Below, one piece after another: positions 49,134 through 53,702 of a DNA stretch of 64,000 nt. The stretch is from NCBI RefSeq assembly GCF_003019035.1, contig NZ_CP027447.1, one strand, 5' to 3'. A model generated the notes under the pieces. That model was not told the DNA's origin. It worked only from the letters and a program-made list of their open reading frames with translations, and did not search any database. The first letter of the stretch is position 1. Each line of letters begins with the position of its first letter. This DNA is from Escherichia coli (GTDB taxonomy: Bacteria; Pseudomonadota; Gammaproteobacteria; Enterobacterales; Enterobacteriaceae). Made by a program: the position numbers and the translations under genes.

Positions 49134-52100
49134 TCAGAACGACCAGTTCACACCAGCCACTGCGTTCCACGGGGATTCCACACCGGCACCATGGCTATAC
49201 CCCACCCCGAGATGCCCGCTTAACGAACTGCTGAATGAGGCTTTAATACCTGCCTGGTATATTCCACGTCTGCCCGACAAATCATTGACAAAATTACCGT
49301 CATTATTCACTTTCACCCGGTTATCATCGACAAATTCTTTGCGCACAGCCGCCTTCAGCCACGGCTCAACTTCCATGCCGTTCCCCAGACGCATGTTGTA
49401 ACTCAGCGTTGCGCCCAGTTCACGATATATACTGCGGGTATCGACTGATTTCGATTCCATGCCATTGGATAAATGATATTCGGGGTTATCAGCGGTGAAC
49501 CCCGTTAACGATGCATACGGCGTCAGGTTCCAGTTACCATCGGTAAATCGCATCCCGGTTTCAATGTGACCGCCCAGCCCGTTGCTGCGATAACTGCCGT
49601 TGGCGGCTCCACCGCTGCTCATTTTACCGGCTACGTTACTTTCAAAGCGGTTCAGCTTCACGATACCGTCCAGATAGAAACCACTTTCATGTTCCCAGCT
49701 GGCATAGCCCCCCAGAGAATAACTGCCCACACTGCCATGTCCTCCACGATCAAAACCGATATGTGAATGGGAATAACCCATAAAAGCGCCCAGCGTCGCA
49801 ATCCCCTCAGGAATATCATTACGGCTATCGATCCCCACCGTCATTCCGGTCAGCGTCTGCTCAAACCCGGCACCCGCATCGGTGGTGACATTATTACGGG
49901 TGTTATACGTCGTCCCCCAGACATTATTGTTGTGTGGACTCGCTTTCATTATGTTCAACCGCTCGCGAATACTGTTTAGCTCAGCATCAAAGACCAACGG
50001 TAATGTTGCTGCCATATTGAGTACGGCTGCCGTAGAAGGCGTGATGCGTTTCTCCGGGACGGGTGTCGGCGTTGGATCGGGAGTCGGGTCTGGTTTCGGA
50101 TCCGGTTTTGGGTCTGGTTTTGGATCCGGCTTCGGATTTGGGTTGGGGTCCGGGTTGGGTTTGACATCATTGGTCAGGTTCCAGTTGCTGTTGCCGTCGC
50201 TTTTCAGGACATACTCATAGGTCCCAAGATCAACGAAACCGCCGGTATTACCCAGCGTAAACGAAGCATCCCCTCCCCCTGTTTTCACCAGCGTCATCGC
50301 GTCGTCAGACTGAGGGCTGACGCCGGTATCCTGAACAAAGATTTTAAAATTACCAGTGGCGTTGTTGTTGACGACCAGTTGATCGCCCCGGGAGCCTGCA
50401 ACGTTGGTATGCAGGTAGAAATTACCGCTGCCGGAAAGTTCACTGGTTGTCAGCGTATTGTAGATACCGTTAGTTGTGGCAGGCGCTGCTGTTTGTGCTG
50501 ATAAATAAACATCACCGTCGTTGAGGAGCAAACTGTTTACTCTATATTCGCAGTTGCTGGTACCTGCACAGGAATTATTGCTGTTAAGCCAGACACTGCC
50601 CCGGCTGGCAGCCGTCAGGTCGGTAAGCGTCGTATCGACGCCATTTCCGATAGTTAATGTCGCGCTATCGGTAATCCGGATCGCCCCTTCGAGTTTAACT
50701 GGCGTAACATTATCCCGTGGCGTCATTAACGACAGGCTTCCTGTCGCGCCACTGACCGATGCATCCGCCAGCGTACCTGCATAGACGATTGCCGTCCCGC
50801 CAGCGACCTGGAGATCTTCTGCCCGGGCCAGAGCCTGAAACTCATCTTTTGACCGCCCAAGGGTATATTGCCCGCCAGAGTTAACCTTTGTGGCGGAGTC
50901 CTGACCCAGGTTTTGCATTGCACCACCCTTGCCAACCTTGGAGTCACGGGCTTCGGTACCTGCTAATACCAATAAATTACCGCCATTTTCCAGCAGCACA
51001 TTGGTCGCTAAATTGCCGGCAATGGAAAAGGTGCCGTACTGGTGAGTACCGCTGATTTCAATACCGTTAGCCGTGCTCGTCTGGAGAGCGGCACCGCTGT
51101 TCTGGACGATATCTGTCGCTTTGCCATTATCGTTGACTGTCAGCGTACCGCCTTCATTGATCGTTGTTTTTATTGCCTCTCCGTTAGCCGAAACTGTTTG
51201 TATTCCGCCGTCGTTAATCGTTGTCTCATTCGCCACACCCTCGACGATTTGTTCGCCGCCGGTGAGCGTCGTGCCTGTCGCAGTGGCTTTTGTTTTGACG
51301 ATCTCCCGCCCGCCCGCATTGACCTGTGTTTTGACGGAAGAGGTGTCTGACTCCACGGTTAACACGCCGCCATTTGTCAGCAGGATATTGTTCGCCGCAC
51401 CCTGCTCGATGCTGAACGCGACGCCATCAGCGCGTGTCCCTGTGACCCGCGTCGCCCTGGTGGTTGCAACCAACGCGCCCTGGCTACTTTGCTGTATCCC
51501 CGTTGCGCTGCCTTTCTCCCGCACATCGAGTGTGCCGCCGTCATTAAGCACCGAGTTTTCAGCCAGACCGCCCTCATTAACTACCTGTGAACCGCCATTA
51601 ATAATGGAACCTTCCGCTGTCCCGTTTACCATAATTTGTTGTAGGCCAGAGACGATATCGGTATTGATCGCCTTACCATAATTCTGAACGGTTTGCGTAC
51701 CGCCATTGATGTGCGTTTTGTCTGTTGACCCACCATCAACAATTTGTTCACCACTTTCGATATTTGCCTCAGTGGCTAAACCATATACCGTTTGCTTGCC
51801 ACCTTTGATATTTGCTTTATCAGAAGTGGCACTGGCATATATTGTTTGGGTACCCGCACTATTGAGTACAGTGCCAACATCTTTTCCATAAACATCCATT
51901 TTACCGTTGGCATTAATAATCGTATCAACTGCCCGGGAACCAGTAACGACTGTTAATGAGCCAGCGTTTTCCAGCACTACATTTTTAGCTTCTGAATTCC
52001 TGATGTAGAAAGCATCACCATAACTGTTGGTTCCTTCGATAAGTGTTCCGGAAGTCGTGGAAGCAATTAATGCGCCGCCGGATTGTTGCTCAACATGCTT

Positions 52101-53702
52101 AGCCTCACCACCGTCCTGAACCTCCAGAACGCCACCATTATTAAGTCTGGTGCTATCTGTTTTAGCCTCCTTCTGGACAATCAGCTTACCGCCAGCATCA
52201 ATGGTAGTATTTTTCGCCGAGGTTTTAGCCACTACCGTCAGTTCGCCGGTATTTTCCAGCACAACATAATTAGCCTCCCCTCCGATAATAGTGAAGCGAG
52301 AGAGCTTGTTGTATCCTTCAATATCAGTCCCTGCGCCCGTGTTGGCAACTAAAGCACTACCCGTCTCCTGGTTAACCCCATGTGCAATACCACCGGTATA
52401 GACAATCAGCGAGCCTCCGGCGCTAATATTGCTGCCAATTGCCGTACCATCTTTCTCAACAACCTGCCGGCTCCCGGAGGAGATATTTGTCGTGTCAGCT
52501 TTCCCGCCGCTCTTGATATTTTGCGTTCCACTGTTGATATTGGTGCCAGTGGCAATACCATGATTATTAATATTCTGTGTACCACCATTGATTATGGTAT
52601 TGGTCGCGTTTCCGGCGACATCCATAACCCCGCCATTATCTATTCGGGTCGCATCAGCTTTAGCATTCGTTAAAACTGACATTGTTCCTTTATCTTTAAT
52701 TATCGTCCTGGTTGCCGAACCATATACGTCTAAATGACCACCGTTTTCCAGCAACACATTGTCTGCCACGTTATTGTGGATGGAGAATGCCCCTTCACTA
52801 TTCGTACCGCTCACCGTCAAATCGTAAGTCGTTACTTTTAGAGCGGCTCCATCGTGCTGAGTAACATTTGTTGCCATACCACCTCTAACATCAAGCACGC
52901 CACCGGAATAAATTTCAATAACATCCGAGGTGCTGGTGTAATCAACAATTTGCGTACCACCAGAATAGATCTGCGTATTTTTTGCCGTTGAATTACTATT
53001 CAGAGACTGAGTTCCGCCTTCAATCGTAGTGTCCAGCGCACGGCTCTCATATACTCTTTGCTCACCGCCATTTTTGATGGTGGTTGTTTCTACTGTGCTC
53101 TGTTCAACATACTGTCGACCACCATTTATGGTTGTGTTCGTTGCCAGACTTCCTTGTACTACGTCCTGAGAGCCAGACTTATTTATCGTTGTACTGTCGA
53201 CATGCCCCTGAGTTGTTACTCGTTGGCTGCCACCATCAATGATTGTTCCATTCGCAGTCCCCCCACTTATGTGTGAATTACCCCCCTTAATTGTCGTTCC
53301 ATTGCTGATACCACCTGTATAAACGTCCTGATTGCCACTCTCGATTATTGTACCGGTGGAAATACCCCCGTCATGAATTGTCTGTCTGCCCCCGTTAATG
53401 GTTGTATTATTAGCCTGCCCCACATAATTGTTATGACGTCCTATATCTTGATATCCACCAGATTCAATAAGACTTTCATTAGATATCCCACCATAAACAT
53501 TCTGCTGGCCATGGTTGATAATATGAGTGTTATTTGTTGTACCTCGTTCATCTACTTTTTGGCTGCCATCTACAGTCTCATCGTTTACCACACCAATAAC
53601 ATCAGGAGTGAAGGCCGCCATCCCGGGCGGGGCATATATCAAGGCAGATATCAATAAGGAAAGTACTGAGCGACGACAATAATAGGGACTGGTCCTGTTC
53701 AT
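49134..53702 (-). CDS. ypjA: AIDA-I/Ag43-type autotransporter adhesin (YpjA-like)
   Basis: Start placed at MNRTSPYYCRRSVLSLLISALIYAPPGMAAF (signal peptide) with gagg RBS; long Thr/Gly/Asn-rich beta-helical passenger repeats; Pro-rich linker PNPDPNPNPKPDPKPDPKPDPKPDPTPDPTPTP; C-terminal beta-barrel ending ...GVNWSF. Confidence 0.88.
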   Translation of the reverse strand: MNRTSPYYCRRSVLSLLISALIYAPPGMAAFTPDVIGVVNDETVDGSQKVDERGTTNNTHIINHGQQNVYGGISNESLIESGGYQDIGRHNNYVGQANNTTINGGRQTIHDGGISTGTIIESGNQDVYTGGISNGTTIKGGNSHISGGTANGTIIDGGSQRVTTQGHVDSTTINKSGSQDVVQGSLATNTTINGGRQYVEQSTVETTTIKNGGEQRVYESRALDTTIEGGTQSLNSNSTAKNTQIYSGGTQIVDYTSTSDVIEIYSGGVLDVRGGMATNVTQHDGAALKVTTYDLTVSGTNSEGAFSIHNNVADNVLLENGGHLDVYGSATRTIIKDKGTMSVLTNAKADATRIDNGGVMDVAGNATNTIINGGTQNINNHGIATGTNINSGTQNIKSGGKADTTNISSGSRQVVEKDGTAIGSNISAGGSLIVYTGGIAHGVNQETGSALVANTGAGTDIEGYNKLSRFTIIGGEANYVVLENTGELTVVAKTSAKNTTIDAGGKLIVQKEAKTDSTRLNNGGVLEVQDGGEAKHVEQQSGGALIASTTSGTLIEGTNSYGDAFYIRNSEAKNVVLENAGSLTVVTGSRAVDTIINANGKMDVYGKDVGTVLNSAGTQTIYASATSDKANIKGGKQTVYGLATEANIESGEQIVDGGSTDKTHINGGTQTVQNYGKAINTDIVSGLQQIMVNGTAEGSIINGGSQVVNEGGLAENSVLNDGGTLDVREKGSATGIQQSSQGALVATTRATRVTGTRADGVAFSIEQGAANNILLTNGGVLTVESDTSSVKTQVNAGGREIVKTKATATGTTLTGGEQIVEGVANETTINDGGIQTVSANGEAIKTTINEGGTLTVNDNGKATDIVQNSGAALQTSTANGIEISGTHQYGTFSIAGNLATNVLLENGGNLLVLAGTEARDSKVGKGGAMQNLGQDSATKVNSGGQYTLGRSKDEFQALARAEDLQVAGGTAIVYAGTLADASVSGATGSLSLMTPRDNVTPVKLEGAIRITDSATLTIGNGVDTTLTDLTAASRGSVWLNSNNSCAGTSNCEYRVNSLLLNDGDVYLSAQTAAPATTNGIYNTLTTSELSGSGNFYLHTNVAGSRGDQLVVNNNATGNFKIFVQDTGVSPQSDDAMTLVKTGGGDASFTLGNTGGFVDLGTYEYVLKSDGNSNWNLTNDVKPNPDPNPNPKPDPKPDPKPDPKPDPTPDPTPTPVPEKRITPSTAAVLNMAATLPLVFDAELNSIRERLNIMKASPHNNNVWGTTYNTRNNVTTDAGAGFEQTLTGMTVGIDSRNDIPEGIATLGAFMGYSHSHIGFDRGGHGSVGSYSLGGYASWEHESGFYLDGIVKLNRFESNVAGKMSSGGAANGSYRSNGLGGHIETGMRFTDGNWNLTPYASLTGFTADNPEYHLSNGMESKSVDTRSIYRELGATLSYNMRLGNGMEVEPWLKAAVRKEFVDDNRVKVNNDGNFVNDLSGRRGIYQAGIKASFSSSLSGHLGVGYSHGAGVESPWNAVAGVNWSF
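50062..50162 (-). repeat. Coding tandem hexanucleotide-like repeat (Pro-Asp/Pro-Lys/Pro-Asn linker) within the autotransporter
   Basis: Plus strand gggtctggtttcggatccggttttgggtctggttttggatccggcttcggatttgg... encoding PNPDPNPNPKPDPKPDPKPDP on the minus strand. Confidence 0.8.

What the first reader, a model, noticed from the sequence alone, without database searches (positions are those of the whole stretch)
49134..53702. Autotransporter adhesin flanking the island, with a Pro-Asp/Pro-Lys tandem linker repeat
A roughly 1520-aa AIDA-I/Ag43-type autotransporter directly abuts the right end of the element. Its Pro-rich linker is encoded by a near-perfect hexanucleotide tandem array (50062-50162), which is prone to slipped-strand expansion or contraction and could vary passenger-domain spacing between strains. 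The gene ends about 300 bp from the attR candidate, so island excision or integration could affect its transcription termination.
Basis: partly seen in the sequence, partly recalled or inferred. Interest (0 to 1): 0.3.

Follow-up and report, generated by a model that had tools for sequence, protein, structure and literature searches.

The report
ypjA autotransporter with variable proline linker
This is the already-annotated E. coli surface adhesin gene ypjA (ehaD), whose proline-rich spacer does change length between strains in small in-frame steps; that is an ordinary feature of this protein class, not a new system.

Summary
It is 100% identical to the annotated ypjA/ehaD of E. coli SCU-301 and 95.7% identical to K-12 ypjA. 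Its architecture is that of a classical AIDA-type autotransporter.

The linker (50055-50162) is a perfect (X-Pro)18 array at protein level. At DNA level it is not a near-perfect hexanucleotide repeat: units are 69% identical to their consensus, and the longest exact repeat is 11 nt.

ypjA alleles carry 15, 16, 18, 19, 20, 22 or 24 units. Within the O55:H7/O157:H7 clone, exact 12-nt and 24-nt blocks have been gained or lost. All changes are in frame, and lab K-12 and most O157 genomes are uniform. This is therefore a slow coding VNTR, not a phase-variation switch.

The transcription-termination idea is not supported. Island-free genomes place the island junction 163 nt from the stop codon, not about 300. 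A terminator-like hairpin 12-33 nt after the stop lies in a spacer conserved in all eight strains compared.

Verdict: known gene, known kind of polymorphism, low interest.

The parts
49134..53702 (-). ypjA/ehaD coding sequence, 1522 aa, intact
   Evidence: ORF and start context. 100% identical over 4901 nt to NZ_CP051751, where PGAP annotates 'adhesin-like autotransporter YpjA/EhaD' with the same ends.
53616..53702 (-). Probable Sec signal peptide, aa 1-29 (MNRTSPYYCRRSVLSLLISALIYAPPGMA|AF)
   Evidence: Read from the translation: basic n-region, hydrophobic core, GMA-A site. Inferred by eye; no predictor was run.
50541..53615 (-). Passenger domain, beta-helical, built of AIDA repeats (aa 30-1054)
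   Evidence: Pfam PF16168 with 8 stretches, E=4e-139. TIGR04415 repeat x8. PDB sequence hits to AIDA-I family adhesin 7ko9, Ag43 4kh3/7kob and TibA 4q1q.
50172..50540 (-). Pertactin-like junction (autochaperone) domain, aa 1055-1177
   Evidence: Pfam PF03212, E=5e-45. Aligns to P.69 pertactin 1dab residues 419-534.
50055..50162 (-). (X-Pro)18 linker, aa 1181-1216; an imperfect coding VNTR
   Evidence: TRF period 12 and 24 arrays at 50074-50137. Copy number is 15-24 units in other ypjA alleles.
50085..50126 (-). DPKP block (units 7-13), containing the 24-nt sub-repeat GATCCAAAACCAGACCCAAAACCG that is duplicated in O157:H7 OK1 and shortened by 24 nt in O157:H7 ECP19-598
50133..50144 (-). NPNP unit (AACCCA AATCCG). 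The 12-nt sub-repeat is present once here and 2, 3 or 4 times in O157:H7 / O55:H7 alleles
49923..50054 (-). Segment between the linker and the Pfam barrel match (aa 1217-1260), expected to hold the pore-traversing alpha-helix
   Evidence: Lies within TIGR01414 (aa 1081-1522) and within the PDB matches to Vag8 and the BrkA translocator. The helix itself is inferred.
49203..49922 (-). Autotransporter beta-barrel translocator (aa 1261-1500 by Pfam)
   Evidence: PF03797, E=8e-46. BrkA translocator 3qq2 aligns to aa 1240-1522.
49101..49122 (.). Terminator-like hairpin (9-bp stem AAAGCCCAC/GTGGGCTTT, 4-nt loop) 12-33 nt after the stop. The T-run is better on the + strand
   Evidence: Sequence. The 56-nt segment 49085-49140 containing it folds at -15.9 kcal/mol, z-score -1.7 against shuffles. 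Invariant in 8 strains. The consensus terminator scan did not call it, so its function is inferred.
48972..49133 (.). Conserved 162-nt spacer between the ypjA stop and the ssrA/island junction
   Evidence: Alignment of 8 strains, comprising empty sites and several different islands. Blast of the empty site against the window.
48965..48971 (+). attR core CGCCAGC, the only clear copy of the ssrA 3' end (40109-40115) at the right island junction
   Evidence: No direct repeat of 14 nt or longer was found between the two island ends.
53767..53886 (-). Annotated 39-aa upstream ORF (WP_001120794), also present upstream of the ycgV-locus paralogue
   Evidence: Whether it is expressed is unknown.

Best explanation
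The locus is the chromosomal E. coli gene ypjA (ehaD), a classical (type Va) AIDA-type autotransporter adhesin. A Sec signal peptide takes the protein to the periplasm. The C-terminal 12-stranded barrel inserts in the outer membrane and exports a long beta-helical passenger made of AIDA repeats. A pertactin-like junction domain caps the base of the passenger.

Between that domain and the pore-traversing helix lies an (X-Pro)18 stretch with alternating Asp and Lys. It most likely forms an extended, polyproline-II-like spacer that sets how far the passenger stands off the outer membrane. On the textbook rise of about 0.31 nm per residue this is at most about 11 nm here, and about 9-15 nm over the observed allele range (inferred).

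The DNA encoding the stretch is an imperfect nested repeat with 6-nt periodicity and 12-nt and 24-nt sub-repeats. It occasionally gains or loses whole sub-repeats, by replication slippage or unequal recombination. All changes are in frame, so they alter linker length only and never switch the gene on or off.

The gene has its own terminator-like hairpin in a conserved spacer. The neighbouring ssrA island therefore does not form part of the gene's 3' end.

Shown here: identity, architecture, allele series and junction position. Inferred: spacer function, slippage mechanism and terminator activity.
For: Identity:
- 100% identical over 4901 nt to annotated ypjA of SCU-301. 95.7% identical over the full length to K-12 ypjA, in the same chromosomal position between the recombinase remnant/ypjCB/ileY and ssrA.

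Architecture:
- Pfam AIDA x8, Pertactin and Autotransporter domains. TIGR01414. PDB relatives Ag43, TibA, AIDA family, pertactin, BrkA and Vag8.

Linker variability:
- The linker is one of only two indel sites among seven intact alleles.
- In 14 loci the 393 nt flanking the array stay constant while the array is 90-144 nt long.
- A systematic sample of 58 ypjA-positive genomes gives lengths equivalent to 18 units (20 genomes), 19 (30), 20 (7) and 15 (1).
- Stepwise series on one sequence background in O55:H7/O157:H7: NPNP block x2, x3 and x4; an exact 24-nt duplication in strain OK1; a 24-nt loss in ECP19-598 and G5295.
- Positive control: the close paralogue at the ycgV locus has a truly near-perfect (AAYCCN)n array, with a 41-nt exact run. 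It shows 24, 27, 29, 32 and 42 units in five strains.

Independence from the island:
-.

Reported function:
- YpjA/YcgV/YfaL promote adhesion and biofilm (PMC3796261, citing Roux 2005). EhaD is listed for biofilm formation (PMC7312957, table 2). YpjA falls in the group 4 biofilm-forming autotransporters (PMC9289746).
Against: - No experiment or structure here shows that the linker is extended or that its length matters.
- The Pfam/NCBIfam matches of the linker to procyclin and TonB are compositional and below their cut-offs.
- Slippage is inferred from allele patterns, not observed.
- The two main array haplotypes (K-12 type and window/O157 type) differ by many synonymous changes. Recombination, not only slippage, has therefore shaped them.
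- The hairpin has a weak U-tract on the ypjA strand and was not called by the terminator scan.
- Many ypjA copies in the O55:H7/O157:H7 series are pseudogenes, so some of the variation may be drift in a dead gene.
Confidence: 0.85

Rival explanations
1. The linker is a fast, slippage-driven contingency locus, as the reader implied with 'near-perfect hexanucleotide array prone to slipped-strand expansion'. It would generate length heterogeneity within populations.
For: Copy number differs among strains and even within the O157:H7 clone. The paralogous ycgV-locus array is hypervariable.
Against: - The ypjA array is imperfect: 69% identity to consensus and a longest exact repeat of 11 nt.
- Every change is a multiple of 6 nt, so no ON/OFF switching is possible.
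- Only 4 lengths were seen in 58 sampled genomes. All sampled K-12/lab derivatives share one length, and nearly all O157:H7 genomes share another.
Confidence: 0.08
2. The length differences come mainly from homologous recombination: allelic replacement, or gene conversion with the ycgV-locus paralogue. Slippage within the array would play little part.
For: - Two deeply divergent array haplotypes with many synonymous differences.
- The paralogue is 92% identical in protein and shares the last six linker units exactly.
- ypjA alleles are only 95-96% identical between lineages.
Against: The O55:H7/O157:H7 series differs only by exact copies of a 12-nt or 24-nt block on an otherwise identical array. 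That is the signature of intra-array slippage or unequal crossing-over. No ypjA allele carries the paralogue's (NP)n tract.
Confidence: 0.25
3. Island integration or excision at ssrA changes ypjA 3'-end formation or expression.
For: - The island junction is only 163 nt from the stop codon.
- In island-free strains ssrA converges on ypjA. In this window an AlpA-like HTH gene (48470-48685) lies downstream in the same orientation.
- The hairpin's U-tract on the ypjA strand is weak.
Against: The stop codon, the hairpin and 162 nt of spacer are conserved in empty sites and in sites carrying at least four different islands. Nothing in the sequence up to the junction changes with island state.
Confidence: 0.07
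4. The copy-number differences are assembly or sequencing artefacts.
For: Repeats are error-prone in assemblies. The window and SCU-301 differ by 26 small gaps over 27 kb, which shows that indel errors exist in such data.
Against: - All differences are exact multiples of 6 nt made of whole units.
- The 22-unit length occurs in at least 13 independent assemblies and the 16-unit length in two. Three of the former and one of the latter were confirmed at sequence level.
- The flanks are unchanged.
- Only the OK1 allele was found in a single genome; the DEC5B allele was the only one of its structure among the rows inspected.
Confidence: 0.03

Closest known systems
E. coli K-12 YpjA / EHEC EhaD (adhesin-like autotransporter)
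   Same: Orthologue. Same chromosomal position, 95.7% nt identity over the whole gene and the same domain order. The product is 100% identical to the annotated WP_106901800 of strain SCU-301.
   Different: Two small indels relative to K-12: a YG at aa 328, and 18 rather than 19 X-Pro units with a different unit order.
ycgV-locus paralogue (between ymgJ and minE; PGAP also names it ypjA in many genomes)
   Same: 92% protein identity over 1104 aligned residues. It has the same upstream 39-aa ORF, the same last six linker units and the same barrel.
   Different: Shorter passenger. Its linker is a near-perfect (Asn-Pro)n array of 24-42 units that is far more variable than the ypjA linker.
Bordetella pertussis pertactin, regions R1 (GGXXP)n and R2 (PQP)n
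   Same: An autotransporter whose allelic variation is concentrated in Pro-containing repeat regions (PMC3279416). The YpjA linker begins just after the segment that aligns to the C-terminal end of the P.69 structure. From my own recollection of pertactin, not tested here, R2 sits in a comparable position.
   Different: Different repeat motif, a much shorter passenger and a different organism. Pertactin variation has been linked to vaccine-era shifts; nothing comparable is known for YpjA.
Ag43/Cah, AIDA-I and TibA (self-associating autotransporters)
   Same: Same passenger repeat type and fold family. Grouped together as group 4 biofilm-forming autotransporters (PMC9289746).
   Different: Scores far below the NCBIfam equivalog cut-offs: 349 against 1200 for Ag43, and 267 against 1200 for AIDA-I. 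Self-association has not been shown for YpjA (PMC9289746).
TonB (Glu-Pro)n/(Lys-Pro)n rod
   Same: An X-Pro dipeptide array with charged X. From general knowledge, TonB's array forms an extended spacer. There is a weak compositional match (E=7.6e-4).
   Different: The match is below the cut-off and not homologous. TonB's array is periplasmic, whereas this one is expected at the cell surface.

Membership tests
Classical (type Va) autotransporter, AIDA-I type | C-terminal outer-membrane beta-barrel translocator domain | tested here: met
   PF03797, E=8e-46, aa 1261-1500. TIGR01414, 331.8 bits against a cut-off of 16. BrkA translocator 3qq2 aligns to aa 1240-1522.
Classical (type Va) autotransporter, AIDA-I type | Beta-helical passenger built of AIDA-type repeats | tested here: met
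   PF16168, 8 stretches, 453 bits. PDB hits to Ag43, TibA and an AIDA-I family adhesin.
Classical (type Va) autotransporter, AIDA-I type | Pertactin-like junction (autochaperone) domain before the translocator | tested here: met
   PF03212, 152.7 bits against a cut-off of 22, aa 1055-1177.
Classical (type Va) autotransporter, AIDA-I type | N-terminal Sec signal peptide | tested here: inconclusive
   The sequence MNRTSPYYCRRSVLSLLISALIYAPPGMA|A looks like one, but no signal-peptide predictor was available.
YpjA/EhaD orthologue group | Full-length, high identity to K-12 ypjA | tested here: met
   95.7% nt identity over 100% of a 4901-nt query. 95.3% protein identity.
YpjA/EhaD orthologue group | Conserved position between the recombinase remnant/ypjCB/ileY and ssrA | tested here: met
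   Same neighbours in SCU-301, K-12, O157:H7 and island-free strains.
Ag43/Cah equivalog (NF033177) and AIDA-I (NF033176) | Score at or above the curated whole-protein cut-off (1200 bits) | tested here: not met
   348.6 and 267.1 bits. Related, but not the same protein.
Self-associating autotransporters (functional class) | Passenger-passenger self-association causing aggregation | not testable with these tools
   PMC9289746 states that the mechanism is unknown and that no structure has been published for YpjA.
Simple-sequence contingency (phase-variable) locus | Long perfect or near-perfect short-unit tract | tested here: not met
   69% identity to the hexamer consensus, no identical adjacent units and a longest exact repeat of 11 nt. 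TRF finds no period-6 array.
Simple-sequence contingency (phase-variable) locus | Unit changes shift the reading frame or promoter spacing, so that expression switches | tested here: not met
   All 12 distinct ypjA arrays are multiples of 6 nt inside the ORF.
Coding VNTR / minisatellite | Tandem array whose copy number is polymorphic in the population, by whole units | tested here: met
   TRF periods 12 and 24. 15-24 units across alleles, with exact 12-nt and 24-nt gains and losses.

The most novel reading that the evidence does not exclude
The X-Pro linkers of ypjA and its ycgV-locus paralogue might act as length-tunable stalks under selection. Copy number would be adjusted, slowly in ypjA and rapidly in the (Asn-Pro)n paralogue, to keep the adhesive passenger exposed beyond the strain's particular O-antigen or capsule layer. 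Linker length would then co-vary with surface polysaccharide type. Nothing here tests this, and the frequent pseudogenisation of ypjA argues against strong selection.
Probability: 0.12. Interest if true: 0.35.

Novelty: already known. Interest (0 to 1): 0.12.

Why it matters
It matters little beyond correct annotation. ypjA/ehaD is a catalogued E. coli adhesin present in about 45% of complete genomes, and repeat-length polymorphism in proline-rich regions of autotransporters is a textbook phenomenon (for example pertactin).

Three modest points are useful:
- The ypjA linker, and much more so the ycgV-locus (Asn-Pro)n linker, are in-frame VNTRs. They could serve as typing markers or as natural linker-length series for surface-display engineering.
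- I found no open-access paper that links either gene to VNTRs.
- The island-free genomes give a clean definition of the right end of the ssrA island in this window.

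Tried and rejected
- Looked for a direct repeat of the ssrA 3' end at the right island end with the repeat finder (seed 10, minimum 14 nt). None was found. Only the 7-nt core CGCCAGC is shared, and it was found by aligning empty sites.
- The consensus terminator scan did not call the post-stop hairpin. I keep it as 'terminator-like' on the basis of sequence, fold and conservation only.
- A broad literature query with min_terms=2 returned only generic MLVA papers. The specific queries ypjA+VNTR and ycgV+VNTR returned nothing.
- PMC2631898 is held only as a short text without the passage I needed.
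- I considered a structure prediction of the C-terminal third and a large protein-database search for linker diversity outside E. coli. I did not run either, because neither would change the verdict on a known gene.
- I rejected the 1565-aa mechanical ORF start (GTG at 53831). The annotated ATG at 53702 has a proper Shine-Dalgarno spacing and matches PGAP.

Full report
**What is there**

The minus strand carries one long ORF ending at 49134. The ATG at 53702 is preceded by GAGGA at an 8-nt spacing and gives a 1522-aa product.

A 4901-nt query around the gene is 100% identical to E. coli SCU-301 (NZ_CP051751). There PGAP annotates 'adhesin-like autotransporter YpjA/EhaD' with exactly these ends. 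K-12 ypjA matches at 95.7% over the full length, in the same chromosomal position. The window as a whole is 99.85% identical to SCU-301 over 27 kb, with 26 small gaps. The source is therefore that strain or a very close relative.

A near-complete copy of the gene (at least 80% of the query) is present in 2436 of 5426 complete E. coli genomes. This agrees with the 44.8% carriage reported for a nested ORF in ypjA by PMC12350097.

**Architecture**

| Element | Residues | Evidence |
|---|---|---|
| AIDA repeats | eight stretches within aa 30-1054 | Pfam, E=4e-139 |
| Pertactin domain | aa 1055-1177 | Pfam |
| Autotransporter barrel | aa 1261-1500 | Pfam |
| Autotransporter barrel domain model | aa 1081-1522 | TIGR01414 |

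The Ag43 and AIDA-I equivalog models score far below their cut-offs. Solved relatives are an AIDA-I family adhesin, Ag43 and TibA for the passenger, P.69 pertactin residues 419-534 for aa 1059-1178, and BrkA and Vag8 for the barrel. 'AIDA-I/Ag43-type autotransporter' is therefore right as a class, and the protein is the distinct, known YpjA/EhaD.

Reviews report that YpjA, YcgV and YfaL promote adhesion and biofilm (PMC3796261, citing Roux 2005). They also list EhaD for biofilm formation (PMC7312957) and place YpjA among the group 4 biofilm-forming autotransporters, with mechanism and structure unknown (PMC9289746).

**The repeat**

Residues 1181-1216 (window 50055-50162) read KPNPDPNPNPKPDPKPDPKPDPKPDPTPDPTPTPVP, which is 18 X-Pro units.

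At DNA level the description 'near-perfect hexanucleotide' fails:
- Units are 69% identical to the consensus AACCCG, and adjacent units are 57% identical.
- Only the CC of each Pro codon is invariant.
- The longest exact internal repeat is 11 nt at offset 24.
- TRF reports only period 12 (78% matches) and period 24 (84% matches), with no period-6 array.

**Does copy number vary?**

Yes. I anchored on conserved flanks and extracted the array from 14 ypjA loci.

| Strain or allele | X-Pro units |
|---|---|
| Window, SCU-301, JMF1 | 18 |
| O68:H12 97.3 (different structure) | 18 |
| K-12, DXMF6-3R | 19 |
| Typical O157:H7, A16 | 20 |
| TUM9757 (pseudogene) | 15 |
| O157:H7 ECP19-598 | 16 |
| O55:H7 RM12579, O157:H7 TX 265-1, PT62 | 22 |
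| O55:H7 DEC5B, O157:H7 OK1 | 24 |

The 393 nt flanking the array within a 501-nt query are constant in length.

A systematic sample of 58 ypjA-positive genomes gives lengths equivalent to 18 units (20 genomes), 19 (30), 20 (7) and 15 (1). A second sample gives a similar picture. Among seven intact alleles, the linker and a YG indel at aa 328 are the only indel sites in the whole protein.

**How it changes**

Within the O55:H7/O157:H7 clonal group the arrays are identical except for whole blocks:
- The 12-nt block AACCCAAATCCC (NPNP) occurs 2, 3 or 4 times.
- OK1 has an exact tandem duplication of the 24-nt block GATCCAAAACCAGACCCAAAACCG.
- ECP19-598 has lost 24 nt, and G5295 matches at the same length.

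K-12-type alleles show a 24-nt loss (TUM9757) and a 6-nt loss (97.3). This is the signature of slippage or unequal exchange between sub-repeats.

Every change is a multiple of 6 nt. All sampled K-12/lab derivatives share one length, and nearly all O157:H7 genomes share another. The array is therefore a slow in-frame coding VNTR, not a phase-variation switch.

The two main haplotypes (K-12 type and window/O157 type) differ by many synonymous changes, so recombination has also contributed.

**A useful contrast**

The close paralogue at the ycgV locus lies between ymgJ and minE and is 92% identical in protein. Its array really is near-perfect: (AAYCCN)n encoding (Asn-Pro)n, with a 41-nt exact run. 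It has 24, 27, 29, 32 and 42 units in five strains, and seven lengths appear among the nine best hits. The ypjA array in this window is much more interrupted and correspondingly more stable.

**The island and termination**

Two island-free genomes (DXMF6-3R and JMF1) have ypjA and ssrA convergent, with 160 bp between the annotated genes.

Aligning such an empty site to the window places the left junction at the ssrA 3' end (40122) and the right junction at 48971-48973. The island is therefore about 8.85 kb.

An alignment of eight strains shows that the stop codon plus 162 nt (48972-49133) are conserved everywhere. After that, sequences diverge according to what is inserted. The only shared att element is CGCCAGC at 48965-48971, which equals ssrA 40109-40115. 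attR is thus 163 nt from the stop, not about 300.

A 9-bp GC-rich hairpin lies at 49101-49122, 12-33 nt after the stop, and is invariant in all eight strains. The 56-nt segment containing it folds at -15.9 kcal/mol. Its U-tract on the ypjA strand is weak, and the consensus scan did not call it. Nothing between the stop and the junction changes with island state, so the termination hypothesis has no sequence support.

**Mechanism, marked as inference**

X-Pro arrays with charged X are expected to adopt an extended polyproline-II-like conformation, as I recall for the TonB rod. Placed between the pertactin-like junction domain and the barrel, the linker would act as a stand-off spacer. On the textbook rise of about 0.31 nm per residue it is about 11 nm at most here, and 9-15 nm across alleles. 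From my recollection of pertactin, region R2 (PQP)n occupies a comparable position. Pertactin variation is concentrated in its two repeat regions (PMC3279416).

**Verdict**

This is a correctly spotted, correctly named, already-annotated gene.
- The array is not near-perfect.
- The attR distance is 163 nt, not about 300 bp.
- The proposed termination effect has no sequence support.

Interest is low.

Noticed in passing
L005:4239-4430, L011:4827-5078, L012:4840-5013, L013:4840-4983, L014:4840-5001 (ycgV locus of other strains; not in the window): The close paralogue between ymgJ and minE carries a near-perfect (AAYCCN)n = (Asn-Pro)n linker of 24-42 units, with exact runs up to 41 nt. It is different in every strain examined, so it is a genuinely hypervariable in-frame VNTR. 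PGAP names this gene ypjA too, which can confuse ypjA prevalence counts.
   Followed up: partly
window 52095-52352 (+), antisense inside ypjA: An 85-aa antisense ORF (MLSLTTVLNLQNATIIKSGAICFSLLLDNQ...) is the homologue of 'CDS87 (in-ypjA)'. PIRT-Seq reported CDS87 as a candidate new protein-coding gene, found in 44.8% of E. coli genomes (PMC12350097).
   Followed up: partly
window 53767-53886 (-): A 39-aa annotated ORF (MPHSYAEYHHFIMMSLMSGEHNTLALSLQDESPGLVPVG) lies just upstream of ypjA. A near-identical one precedes the ycgV-locus paralogue. It could be a leader peptide or merely part of the duplicated segment.
   Followed up: no
window 40123-48970: An 8.85-kb island is inserted at the ssrA 3' end. 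It carries an integrase (40290-41522), a MobQ-family relaxase (within 44875-46203) and an AlpA-like HTH gene (48470-48685, same orientation as ypjA). It looks like a small integrative mobilisable element occupying the site where K-12 has CP4-57. Its right end (GCTGGCGTCCCTGT on the ypjA strand) is shared with unrelated-looking islands in O157:H7, A16 and 97.3.
   Followed up: partly
window 56849-56924 (-): ARAGORN calls this tRNA-Met (CAT), but the equivalent gene in SCU-301 and K-12 is annotated tRNA-Ile. From general knowledge this is ileY, read as Ile after lysidine modification.
   Followed up: no
window 54638-56092 (-) and 54041-54307 (-): ypjCB (DUF5507) appears split by an internal stop into 349-aa and 118-aa ORFs, and a recombinase (pinH-like) remnant lies between it and ypjA. 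Both match the pseudogene annotations in SCU-301 and K-12.
   Followed up: no
L004, L015-L019 (other strains): ypjA is often a pseudogene. It is frameshifted in O55:H7 strains and in O157:H7 TX 265-1, and IS-interrupted in O157:H7 SS NE 1040-1. It is truncated at the island junction in ECP19-598, and frameshifted with an internal stop in TUM9757.
   Followed up: no
L005 (NZ_JBRAXZ010000002.1, 'plasmid pPEC011-1', 517 kb): A record labelled as a plasmid carries minCDE, ycgH and the ycgV-locus gene. It is probably a chromosomal segment or a mis-assigned replicon.
   Followed up: no
window 36980-64000 versus L001: The window and SCU-301 differ by 9 mismatches but 26 gap openings over 27 kb. This pattern is typical of homopolymer indel errors in one of the assemblies. 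It may explain why SCU-301 annotates a DUF4755 pseudogene where the window has an intact 164-aa ORF (46564-47058).
   Followed up: no
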